A stretch of 1,110 nucleotides of DNA, taken from assembly GCA_000004985.1 (NCBI GenBank), contig GG739552.1; one strand, written 5' to 3'. This DNA comes from Naegleria gruberi (taxonomy: Eukaryota). The position numbers and the translations under genes are program-made. The notes under the pieces are model-generated. The model was not told the origin of the DNA and made no database searches. It saw only the letters and a list, made by a program, of their open reading frames with translations. Below, in pieces: positions 1 to 1,110 of this stretch (positions are counted from its first letter, which is position 1; each line of letters begins with the position of its first letter).

Positions 1-1
1 T

Positions 2-115
2 GTACCCGTTGAAAAAAATCGGAACAAACTCACGCCGTTTGCGCTATTGTTGAATTTACTTTGTAGTATCGAGCCTCTGTTGCATCATCATACTTCAGCA
101 ACAAGTCATTCGTAA
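2..115 (+). CDS. Possible C-terminal fragment of an unidentified convergent ORF (5' end outside window), ending in HHHTSATSHS*
   Basis: Plus frame 2 is open from the window edge to TAA at 113..115 (37 codons: VPVEKNRNKLTPFALLLNLLCSIEPLLHHHTSATSHS*). It is too short to assess coding potential and I recognise no motif. It could equally be non-coding 3'UTR of the Tet gene. Confidence 0.12.
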   Translation, partial: VPVEKNRNKLTPFALLLNLLCSIEPLLHHHTSATSHS

Positions 116-130
116 TAAAAGCAATAATAG

Positions 131-136
131 TTTATT
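131..136 (-). promoter_or_regulatory. Candidate polyadenylation hexamer AATAAA overlapping the stop codon of the Tet gene (minus-strand reading TAAATAAA)
   Basis: Plus-strand 'tttatt' at 131..136 reads AATAAA on the minus strand, immediately after and overlapping TAA 132..134. The sequence is very AT-rich, so a chance occurrence is plausible. Naegleria polyadenylation signals are not well defined, to my knowledge. Confidence 0.25.
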
Positions 137-1097
137 TAGTTTCTTTATGTATTTTAAGGGAGTTCTTTTGGGTGTCTTCATAATACGGTTTAGTTTTGCT
201 TCCTTTATGAGCAAAATACACCAATCCTATCCTCCATCCCGATGTGATATTTGCAACAACATGCTTGTATTCATTTCCTTTGAAGAATAGCACGTCTCCA
301 GGTTGAACAAACACCTTGCAATTCTTATCAGTCAATTCTAAATATCCTTCTGTGTTTTGAAAATTGCCAAAGTAAAACAACGAACTTGGAGTGATATCAA
401 GATTATCTTTATGTGGTTTTCTAATTCTGTGACCATCGTTGCTTGGTTTTAACGAGTTGAAGGCGGTTGAGGGATATAAACAATTATTTAGAGCATAGTA
501 TGAATCATTCAATGATACCAAGTAGTTGATCGTTCTGGATGAAACACACGTCAACAACTTTGAAATGTAATAATTGATCTGTGGATTCACAATTTCCGAT
601 AAATACTGTCCCAACTCTTGTGAAAGATCCGCAGTAACGTAGTTAAATGGCATACTATTATCCAAAATTCCACTATATCCAGTATCCTTTTTCCTACCAG
701 TTTGAATAGATTCAAACTTTTCTGTAAATTCCTCCACTAATTCTTTCGGCAATACATTTGGCAAATAGGCCAACTCTACACTTCCATCATGATCACACAC
801 AAAATATGCCGTCCTTACGTTCTTTAACCATTTTTCATCCTTCAAGGTAATGTTTGCATTGGTGAATGATTGTTGAAACGTTGTTTTGCACTTCGAAAGC
901 AAATTTTGAAGTAACGATTTTTTGTTGATACCACCACCACTATCAAGAAGCGTAGTTGTGTTTGCAACCTCCTCTCCTCGATTCACACAAACGGGCCCAT
1001 TGGGATGCGTTTGTGTTAAGTTGGCAGTGGTACCCTTTATGCAATATTTCCTCTTTGTTTCCTTCTCCTTGATTGTTTGTTGTTTGAATGTTGTCAT
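132..1097 (-). CDS. NgTet1: TET/JBP-family Fe(II)/2-oxoglutarate-dependent 5-methylcytosine dioxygenase; matches Naegleria gruberi Tet-like dioxygenase 1 (NgTet1), full length 321 aa, single exon
   Basis: Continuous 966-nt ORF on the minus strand, ATG at 1095..1097 and TAA at 132..134. Translation contains the HxD iron-binding motif (PHKDNLD; His229/Asp231, nt 405..413) and a distal iron-binding His in 'NEYKHVV' (His279, nt 261..263). It also contains the 2OG-binding Arg in 'SGWRIGLVYFAHK' (Arg289, nt 231..233), which closely parallels TET2 'TRISLVFYQHK'. Residue numbers H229/D231/H279/R289/N147/F295/H297 and the 321-aa length coincide with what I recall for the published NgTet1 structure. 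AT-rich composition fits N. gruberi. I cannot run a database search, so organism and paralogue assignment rest on memory of that structure paper. Confidence 0.88.
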   Translation of the reverse strand: MTTFKQQTIKEKETKRKYCIKGTTANLTQTHPNGPVCVNRGEEVANTTTLLDSGGGINKKSLLQNLLSKCKTTFQQSFTNANITLKDEKWLKNVRTAYFVCDHDGSVELAYLPNVLPKELVEEFTEKFESIQTGRKKDTGYSGILDNSMPFNYVTADLSQELGQYLSEIVNPQINYYISKLLTCVSSRTINYLVSLNDSYYALNNCLYPSTAFNSLKPSNDGHRIRKPHKDNLDITPSSLFYFGNFQNTEGYLELTDKNCKVFVQPGDVLFFKGNEYKHVVANITSGWRIGLVYFAHKGSKTKPYYEDTQKNSLKIHKETK

Positions 1098-1110
1098 TTT
1101 TTTAAATGTT
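1098..1110 (-). promoter_or_regulatory. A-rich translation-initiation context upstream of the ATG (minus strand AACATTTAAAAAA-ATG)
   Basis: Reverse complement of 1098..1110 is aacatttaaaaaa, placing A at -3 and an A-run directly 5' of the start codon. This is typical of AT-rich protist start contexts. The true promoter lies outside the window. Confidence 0.3.

What the first reader, a model, noticed from the sequence alone, without database searches (positions are those of the whole stretch)
132..1097. Complete, intron-less gene for a compact TET/JBP 5mC dioxygenase, residue-for-residue consistent with Naegleria gruberi NgTet1
The 321-aa product has the full iron/2OG ligand set of TET/JBP enzymes (H229-x-D231, H279, R289) and the DNA/base-contacting residues reported for NgTet1 (N147, F295, H297), all at exactly the published positions. 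It lacks the Cys-rich and CXXC regions of metazoan TETs, as the minimal Naegleria enzymes do. The match supports its use as a structural model of TET catalysis. This is a well-characterised protein, so the interest lies in correct identification, not novelty.
Basis: partly seen in the sequence, partly recalled or inferred. Interest (0 to 1): 0.5.

Follow-up and report, generated by a model that had tools for sequence, protein, structure and literature searches.

The report
Naegleria NgTet1 5mC dioxygenase gene
The window carries, on its minus strand, the gene for NgTet1, the small Naegleria gruberi enzyme that oxidises 5-methylcytosine in DNA and whose crystal structures are already published, so this is a correct identification of a well-known protein and not a discovery.

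Summary
Confirmed and already known. Its product is 100% identical over its full length to N. gruberi XP_002667965.1 / UniProt D2W6T1 (Tet-like dioxygenase 1). It also matches every native residue of PDB 4LT5 (M-His6 + residues 2-321) and 5CG8/5CG9 (residues 57-321). All the residues cited sit at the stated positions: N147, H229, D231, H279, R289, F295 and H297, plus R224, D234 and A212. Held papers confirm the roles of N147, R224, D234, R289, F295 and H297. The metal ligands H229/D231/H279 are supported by conservation in 18 homologues and by alignment onto the crystallographic Mn ligands of CcTet. The closest N. gruberi paralogues found are at most 37% identical, so this is NgTet1 itself.

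Caveats are minor. The 5' flank is only 13 nt and has no in-frame stop. "Intron-less" assumes the window is genomic DNA, which is likely because it has the length of the one 1110-nt contig on record. The Pfam Tet_JBP model does not detect this protein. Interest is low and the novelty rating is "already known".

The parts
135..1097 (-). NgTet1 coding sequence, 321 codons (aa 1 = 1097-1095, aa 321 = 137-135)
   Evidence: ORF list. 100% identical to XP_002667965.1/D2W6T1 and to PDB 4LT5/5CG8/5CG9.
132..134 (-). TAA stop codon
1095..1097 (-). ATG start codon in an A-rich context (AACATTTAAAAAA|ATG). No in-frame stop in the 13 nt upstream.
   Evidence: The 52%-identical homologue in L001 also starts MTT, in a similar context, with an in-frame TAA two codons upstream.
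930..1097 (-). N-terminal aa 1-56: Lys-rich, predicted disordered, dispensable for the crystallised core
   Evidence: pLDDT <50 for aa 1-54. The 5CG8/5CG9 construct starts at residue 57.
135..929 (-). Catalytic core aa 57-321, a double-stranded beta-helix 2OG/Fe(II) dioxygenase fold
   Evidence: The AF2 model (pLDDT >90) superposes on 4LT5/5CG8/5CG9 with TM 0.99 and rmsd 0.6-0.7 A. The next structural neighbours are CcTet, CMD1 and TET2.
405..413 (-). H229-K230-D231: the HxD half of the metal-binding triad
   Evidence: Codons CAT AAA GAT. H229 is invariant and D231 at least 90% conserved in 18 homologues. They align with CcTet H326/D328, which are the Mn ligands in the CcTet crystal (PMC11040006).
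261..263 (-). H279: distal His of the metal triad
   Evidence: Invariant in A1. Aligns with CcTet H376, a Mn ligand.
231..233 (-). R289: binds the C5-carboxylate of 2OG/NOG
   Evidence: Invariant. Role stated in PMC7854593 and PMC4787775.
426..428 (-). R224: binds the C1-carboxylate of 2OG and stacks on the flipped 5mC
   Evidence: PMC4678852, PMC7854593
213..215 (-). F295: pi-stacks under the flipped 5mC base
   Evidence: Invariant. PMC4678852.
207..209 (-). H297: hydrogen bond to N3 of 5mC
   Evidence: PMC4678852
657..659 (-). N147: hydrogen bond to O2 of 5mC
   Evidence: PMC4678852
396..398 (-). D234: hydrogen bond to N4 of 5mC; sets the preference for cytosine over thymine
   Evidence: PMC4678852. 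At least 90% conserved.
462..464 (-). A212: part of the A212/V293/F295 hydrophobic pocket; the A212V mutant stops at 5hmC
   Evidence: PMC4678852 abstract and introduction
1..131 (.). 3' flank of the gene (non-coding as far as I can tell)
   Evidence: No Rfam family, tRNA or repeat. No similarity to the homologues' flanks. A 37-codon frame open off the left end is not significant.
1098..1110 (.). 5' flank, 13 nt only; the window ends here

Best explanation
The window is the Naegleria gruberi locus NAEGRDRAFT_55029. It is very probably the entire 1110-nt genome scaffold that carries the locus. The minus strand encodes, in a single exon, NgTet1, a 321-aa Fe(II)/2-oxoglutarate-dependent DNA 5-methylcytosine dioxygenase. 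The mechanism is established by others' crystal structures and biochemistry and is inherited here through sequence identity. The enzyme binds duplex DNA and flips the 5mC out of the helix into a cage. There the base is sandwiched between F295 and R224 and read along its Watson-Crick edge by N147 (O2), H297 (N3) and D234 (N4). Fe(II) is held by H229, D231 and H279. 2OG is held by R224 (C1 carboxylate) and R289 (C5 carboxylate). Oxidative decarboxylation of 2OG drives stepwise oxidation of the 5-methyl group to 5hmC, 5fC and 5caC. The small A212/V293/F295 pocket lets the 5hmC hydroxyl rotate away so the next round can proceed. Residues 1-56 form a disordered basic tail outside the catalytic core. 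Shown here: gene anatomy, identity to NgTet1, residue positions, conservation and fold. Inferred from the literature: the chemistry. Not addressed by any evidence here: the role in the living amoeba.
For: ORF at 132..1097 on the minus strand, 321 aa, far longer than any ORF in shuffled sequence. 100% identity and coverage to XP_002667965.1/D2W6T1 'Tet-like dioxygenase 1'. Identical to 4LT5_A (M-His6 + residues 2-321) and to 5CG8/5CG9 (residues 57-321). Papers equate NgTET1 with those accessions and those PDB codes with NgTet1. Residue roles come from PMC4678852, PMC7854593 and PMC4787775. H229, H279, R289 and F295 are invariant, and D231 and D234 at least 90% conserved, across 18 homologues. 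A profile of those homologues aligns H229/D231/H279/R289/F295/H297 onto CcTet H326/D328/H376/R385/F391/R393. CcTet H326/D328/H376 are its Mn ligands, and the paper pairs R393 with NgTet1 H297 and G331 with D234. The AF2 model reproduces the crystal structures (TM 0.99); the next neighbours are CcTet, CMD1 and TET2. The paralogues are at most 37% identical. GC is 36% throughout with A/T-rich codons, as expected of native DNA and not of a codon-optimised construct.
Against: Nothing contradicts the identification. Limits: the Pfam Tet_JBP model (PF12851) gives no hit at E<=1 for this protein or its close homologues, so sequence-profile membership of TET/JBP was not reproduced here. It rests on structure, motif alignment and published biochemistry. 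No held paper states the numbers H229/D231/H279 outright, and the primary Nature 2014 paper is not held. The exact-protein contig look-up returned no record, so I could not view the source record and its genomic nature is inferred. No in-frame stop lies upstream of the ATG.
Confidence: 0.98

Rival explanations
1. It is one of the other Naegleria Tet-like paralogues (NgTet2-8), or an orthologue from another heterolobosean, and not NgTet1.
For: Such relatives exist: N. gruberi XP_002668594.1, XP_002676954.1, XP_002676528.1 and XP_002668409.1, Willaertia magna KAL9651215.1, and unnamed metagenome proteins.
Against: They are only 27-37% identical (named proteins) or 49-52% identical (metagenome proteins). 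The window product is 100% identical to the NgTet1 records and crystal chains.
Confidence: 0.005
2. The gene as seen is truncated at the 5' end. The true ORF would continue upstream, or there would be an upstream exon beyond the end of the 1110-nt record, so the 321-aa 'full-length' NgTet1 would be an annotation artefact of a tiny scaffold.
For: Only 13 nt lie upstream of the ATG and the frame stays open through them (T-F-K-K-M). The protein is on record on one contig only, of 1110 nt.
Against: The 52%-identical homologue in L001 begins with the same M-T-T in a similar A-rich context and has an in-frame TAA two codons upstream. Its cluster-mate P0005 also starts MTT. The first 54 residues are already a disordered tail. 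The recombinant 321-aa protein is described as catalytically active in PMC4678852.
Confidence: 0.03
3. The window is a cDNA or cloned/synthetic copy and not genomic DNA, so the absence of introns says nothing about the gene.
For: I could not retrieve the source record. NgTet1 has been cloned many times.
Against: There are no tag codons, although the 4LT5 construct has M-His6. There is no vector sequence and no poly(A) tail. Both flanks are A/T-rich at ~36% GC, like the ORF. Codon use is A/T-rich, not optimised for E. coli. The window length equals that of the single NCBI-sourced contig on record for the protein. The homologues in L001 and L002 are also uninterrupted ORFs on metagenome contigs.
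Confidence: 0.03
4. A chance ORF in AT-rich DNA with coincidental motifs.
For: None.
Against: 321 aa against a maximum of 122 aa in 500 shuffles. E = 1e-219 to a solved structure.
Confidence: 0

Closest known systems
[quoted passage not shown]
   Same: Identical in every residue. The residue numbering also matches once the M-His6 tag of 4LT5 is discounted.
   Different: Nothing at the protein level. The window adds only 13 nt of 5' flank and 131 nt of 3' flank.
Unnamed metagenome homologues P0002/P0005 (52% identical) and P0006 (49% identical), presumably from other heteroloboseans
   Same: Same length class (309-328 aa), the same MTT start (P0002/P0005), all catalytic and base-contact residues conserved in P0005 and P0006, and single uninterrupted ORFs.
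   Different: About half the residues differ. The P0002 contig loses the C-terminal R/F/H strand after '...EITS'.
N. gruberi Tet-like paralogues found here (XP_002668594.1, XP_002676954.1, XP_002676528.1, XP_002668409.1)
   Same: The same HxD...H...R...F core.
   Different: 31-37% identical and 207-583 aa long. XP_002676528.1 has long N- and C-terminal extensions.
CcTet, Coprinopsis cinerea (PDB 7VPN, 8JKK)
   Same: Nearest non-Naegleria structure (Foldseek E ~4e-10; profile E 0.017). The metal triad, the 2OG arginine and the stacking Phe align one-to-one.
   Different: 12-14% identical. G331 replaces D234, which allows 6mA activity, and R393 replaces H297. It has extra DNA-binding loops (PMC11040006).
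Human TET2 catalytic domain (PDB 4NM6, 5D9Y) and other metazoan TETs
   Same: DSBH core, base flipping, equivalent residues R1261/R1896/Y1902/H1904/N1387, and the same three-step oxidation.
   Different: 8-10% identical. Metazoan TETs are far larger, with a Cys-rich region, a large low-complexity insert and, in TET1/3, a CXXC domain. NgTet1 has 7 Cys, no CXXC, and the core only.

Membership tests
NgTet1 (the specific N. gruberi protein) | Full-length sequence identity to XP_002667965.1 / D2W6T1 and to the 4LT5 chain | tested here: met
   100% identity and 100% coverage. 4LT5 = M-His6 + residues 2-321, all identical. The accessions are tied to the name NgTET1 in PMC11572971 and PMC13229309.
NgTet1 (the specific N. 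gruberi protein) | Clearly closer to NgTet1 than to the other N. gruberi Tet-like paralogues | tested here: met
   The N. gruberi paralogues recovered are 31-37% identical. I recovered four named paralogues. I could not verify the published count of eight, which I recall from memory.
TET/JBP 5-methylpyrimidine dioxygenases (2OG/Fe(II) superfamily) | Double-stranded beta-helix fold resembling solved TET catalytic domains | tested here: met
   AF2 model: pLDDT >90 over aa 57-321, TM 0.99 to 4LT5/5CG8/5CG9. The next hits are CcTet (E 4e-10), CMD1 (E 7e-8) and TET2 (E 4e-6).
TET/JBP 5-methylpyrimidine dioxygenases (2OG/Fe(II) superfamily) | HxD...H metal-binding triad | tested here: met
   H229-K-D231 and H279 are present and invariant or nearly so in 18 homologues. 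They align with the CcTet Mn ligands H326/D328/H376.
TET/JBP 5-methylpyrimidine dioxygenases (2OG/Fe(II) superfamily) | Arginine(s) binding the 2OG carboxylates | tested here: met
   R224 and R289 are present and R289 is invariant. Roles from PMC7854593 and PMC4787775.
TET/JBP 5-methylpyrimidine dioxygenases (2OG/Fe(II) superfamily) | Residues that cage and read a flipped 5-methylpyrimidine (aromatic stack plus polar-edge contacts) | tested here: met
   F295, N147, H297 and D234 are present. Roles from PMC4678852.
TET/JBP 5-methylpyrimidine dioxygenases (2OG/Fe(II) superfamily) | Detection by the Pfam Tet_JBP model PF12851 (a diagnostic model, not a property of the protein) | tested here: not met
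   No PF12851 hit at E<=1; only Cupin_2 at E 0.065. The same holds for close homologues. The Willaertia relative gives a sub-threshold hit, E 0.051. I read this as a sensitivity limit of the model, because the solved structures and published biochemistry place NgTet1 in the family.
TET/JBP 5-methylpyrimidine dioxygenases (2OG/Fe(II) superfamily) | Fe(II)/2OG-dependent oxidation of 5mC to 5hmC, 5fC and 5caC in DNA | not testable with these tools
   Reported for NgTet1 in PMC4678852. It applies here through sequence identity.
Metazoan-type TET architecture | Cys-rich region preceding the DSBH, CXXC zinc finger, large insert in the DSBH | tested here: not met
321 aa in total, 7 scattered Cys, no C-x-x-C, no such Pfam domain.

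The most novel reading that the evidence does not exclude
The most novel reading not excluded: the 1110-nt record cuts the locus 13 nt upstream of the annotated ATG, with the frame still open. Native NgTet1 could then carry an unrecognised N-terminal extension or upstream exon, such as a targeting or chromatin-reading module like the chromodomain seen in one distant homologue. The widely used 321-aa 'full-length' enzyme would then be a truncated model.
Probability: 0.03. Interest if true: 0.25.

Novelty: already known. Interest (0 to 1): 0.07.

Why it matters
It matters only as a correct annotation. NgTet1 is a standard minimal structural and biochemical model for TET-type 5mC oxidation, and several crystal structures are published. 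Finding its gene in this window adds no new biology. Two points have modest practical value. First, the gene appears to sit alone on a ~1.1-kb record, so its promoter, its neighbours and its true 5' end are not documented by this sequence. Second, the Pfam Tet_JBP model misses the Naegleria clade: no hit at E<=1 for NgTet1 or the three relatives tested, and only a sub-threshold hit for the Willaertia protein. HMM-based surveys may therefore under-count such enzymes.

Tried and rejected
(1) The exact-protein contig look-up for the window product and for P0001 returned 'not on record'. I therefore could not view the source scaffold directly.

(2) The primary structure paper (Nature 2014, PMC4364404) and the PNAS 2015 paper (PMC4394277) are not held. 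Four literature searches for explicit 'H229/D231/H279' statements found nothing relevant. In-paper searches of five held papers also found none. I supported the metal ligands by conservation and by alignment to CcTet instead.

(3) Pfam and PHROGs scans gave no meaningful family hit.

(4) Rfam, tRNA and repeat scans of both strands were empty.

(5) The 131-nt 3' flank has no similarity to the flanks of homologues. Its 37-codon open frame off the left end is about what chance gives in 36% GC DNA (my rough estimate is P ~0.07 per frame). I ran no further search on it.

(6) I considered and rejected four alternatives: a paralogue, a phage or fungal TET, a chance ORF, and an expression construct (see the rival explanations).

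Full report
**Observation.** The window is 1110 nt and 36% GC throughout. The ORF list shows a single long ORF at 132..1097, ATG to TAA, 321 codons. It lies on the minus strand: start codon at 1097-1095, stop at 134-132. In 500 shuffles of the window the longest ATG-initiated ORF averaged 56 aa and never exceeded 122 aa, so the ORF is not chance. The translation carries N147, A212, R224, H229, D231, D234, H279, R289, F295 and H297 at exactly those numbers. I checked each codon against the raw sequence. There are 7 cysteines, no C-x-x-C motif, and no Cys-rich or CXXC domain by Pfam.

**Identity.** phmmer against all PDB chains gives 4LT5_A ('Naegleria Tet-like dioxygenase', E 9.5e-220) and 5CG8/5CG9 ('Tet-like dioxygenase', E 9.4e-181), with every aligned residue identical. 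The 4LT5 chain is M-HHHHHH followed by native residues 2-321. The 5CG8 chain is HM followed by residues 57-321. Native numbering is therefore preserved. The large protein database holds a 100%-identical, 100%-coverage entry. Its accessions are EFC35221.1, XP_002667965.1 and UniProt D2W6T1, named 'Tet-like dioxygenase 1, TET1_NAEGR', with locus tag NAEGRDRAFT_55029. PMC4678852 states that 4LT5 is the NgTet1-5mC complex and that 5CG8/5CG9 are NgTet1 complexes. PMC11572971 lists NgTET1 as XP_002667965.1, and PMC13229309 lists it as D2W6T1.

**Not a paralogue.** A filter-only HMMER scan of 1.84 billion cluster representatives found just 22 proteins at E<=1e-3.
- The two best are unnamed metagenome proteins, 52% and 49% identical.
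- The named N. gruberi proteins are XP_002668594.1 (37%), XP_002676954.1 (33%), XP_002676528.1 (583 aa; its 582-aa cluster representative is 33% identical) and XP_002668409.1 (31%).
- A Willaertia magna protein is 27% identical.

The window therefore encodes NgTet1 itself.

**Residue roles.** PMC4678852 describes how the flipped 5mC is held. The base is stacked between F295 and the guanidinium of R224. It is hydrogen-bonded by N147 (O2), H297 (N3) and D234 (N4), with D234 setting the preference for cytosine. R224 also ion-pairs with 2OG. A212/V293/F295 form the pocket that lets 5hmC re-orient, and the A212V mutant limits the product to 5hmC. PMC7854593 and PMC4787775 state that the C1- and C5-carboxylates of NOG are held by R224 and R289 respectively.

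**Metal ligands.** No held paper gives the numbers H229/D231/H279, and the primary Nature 2014 paper is not held. I tested them in two other ways.
- In an alignment of 18 homologues (A1), H229, H279, R289 and F295 are invariant, and D231, D234, N214, D268 and V281 are at least 90% conserved.
- A profile of A1 hits CcTet (7VPN, E 0.017). The alignment puts NgTet1 H229/D231/D234/H279/R289/F295/H297 opposite CcTet H326/D328/G331/H376/R385/F391/R393. The CcTet structure paper reports Mn(II) coordinated by H326, D328 and H376. It independently pairs G331 with NgTet1 D234 and R393 with NgTet1 H297.

It is incomplete only in omitting R224 and D234.

**Fold.** An AlphaFold2 model built from A1 has pLDDT above 90 over residues 57-321 and below 50 over residues 1-54. 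That boundary matches the crystallisation construct that starts at residue 57. Foldseek against the PDB returns 5CG9, 5CG8 and 4LT5 at TM 0.99 (normalised to the target) and rmsd 0.6-0.7 A. Next come CcTet (E ~4e-10), CMD1 (E ~7e-8) and human TET2 (E ~4e-6), followed by AlkB/FTO and prolyl hydroxylases. This is the expected neighbourhood for a TET-type double-stranded beta-helix enzyme.

**Mechanism.** By identity with the characterised protein, the mechanism is as follows. The enzyme flips 5mC out of duplex DNA into the cage described above. Fe(II) sits on the H229/D231/H279 triad, and 2OG is held by R224 and R289. The methyl group is oxidised in three consecutive steps to 5hmC, 5fC and 5caC, without release of formaldehyde (PMC4678852). 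[quoted passage not shown] The anatomy, identity, conservation and fold are shown here. The chemistry comes from the literature. Nothing I examined addresses the role in the living amoeba.

**Caveats on 'complete' and 'intron-less'.**
- The window ends 13 nt upstream of the ATG, and those 13 nt (AACATTTAAAAAA) contain no in-frame stop. The window alone therefore cannot exclude an N-terminal extension.
- Against an extension: the 52%-identical homologue on metagenome contig L001 also starts M-T-T, in a similar A-rich context (90% identity over 20 nt across the start). It has an in-frame TAA two codons upstream.
- The ORF is collinear with the crystallised protein, so this DNA has no intron. That this DNA is genomic is an inference from four points. 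The database records the protein on one contig of exactly 1110 nt, the window's length. There are no tag codons, vector sequence or poly(A) tail. The flanks are A/T-rich like the ORF. Codon usage is A/T-rich and not optimised.
- The direct contig look-up failed.
- Homologues on L001 and L002 are also uninterrupted ORFs.

**Surroundings.** No Rfam family, tRNA or repeat is found on either strand. The 131-nt 3' flank shows no similarity to the flanks of homologues. A 37-codon frame on the plus strand, open off the left end (2..112), is not significant.

**Comparison and novelty.** This is the known NgTet1 gene, so the novelty rating is 'already known'. One result runs against expectation: the Pfam Tet_JBP model PF12851 does not detect NgTet1 or its close relatives at E<=1. 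A Willaertia relative gives only a sub-threshold hit. I treat this as a sensitivity limit of the model and not as evidence against membership, because the structure, the motif alignment and the published activity all place the protein in the TET/JBP family. Interest is low (0.07).

Noticed in passing
window 1098-1110 and the whole window: The window length (1110 nt) equals the length of the only contig on which the database records this protein. NgTet1 therefore seems to sit alone on a tiny scaffold that ends 13 nt upstream of its ATG, with no in-frame stop in those 13 nt. Its promoter and genomic neighbours are undocumented here.
   Followed up: partly
window 135-1097 (-), product: The Pfam Tet_JBP model (PF12851) gives no hit at E<=1 for NgTet1, and none for its homologues P0005 and P0031. 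The best Pfam hit for NgTet1 is Cupin_2 at E 0.065. A Willaertia magna relative (P0018) reaches only E 0.051. HMM-based censuses of TET/JBP enzymes would miss this clade.
   Followed up: partly
product of window 135-1097 (-): The family is very sparse by sequence: only 22 proteins at E<=1e-3 among 1.84 billion cluster representatives. All the named ones come from heteroloboseans (N. gruberi, Willaertia magna).
   Followed up: partly
L001 890-969: The 52%-identical homologue on metagenome contig L001 diverges abruptly after '...GEITS', at about nt 897. It ends without the equivalents of R289, F295 and H297. Its 90%-cluster mate P0005 (328 aa) keeps them. DNA similarity to the window also stops at L001 nt 896. 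This is probably an assembly chimera or a truncated copy.
   Followed up: partly
L002 2465-5479 (-) and 5537-6262 (-): On a 6.4-kb JGI metagenome contig, the 49%-identical Tet-like gene (138-1124) lies next to a 1004-aa ORF and a 241-aa ORF on the opposite strand. Neither has any Pfam match. The large ORF has low-complexity repeats in its N-terminal part and a Cys/His-rich stretch (CPYCEICHPTC). Function unknown.
   Followed up: partly
P0024 (575 aa, distant homologue) residues 461-514; P0031 = XP_002676528.1 C-terminus: One distant homologue fuses the Tet-like dioxygenase core to a Chromo domain (PF00385, E 1.2e-6, above the gathering score). The 583-aa N. gruberi paralogue aligns to that region in A1 but gives no Pfam Chromo hit.
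   Followed up: partly
window 930-1097 (-), aa 1-56: The N-terminal ~54 residues are Lys/Thr-rich and predicted disordered (pLDDT <50). They are poorly conserved among homologues. This matches the construct starting at residue 57 that was used for the later crystal structures.
   Followed up: yes
window 2-112 (+): A 37-codon reading frame is open from the left edge of the window to a TAA at 113-115, convergent with the NgTet1 gene. It is about what chance gives in 36% GC DNA. I found no similarity in the loci at hand.
   Followed up: partly
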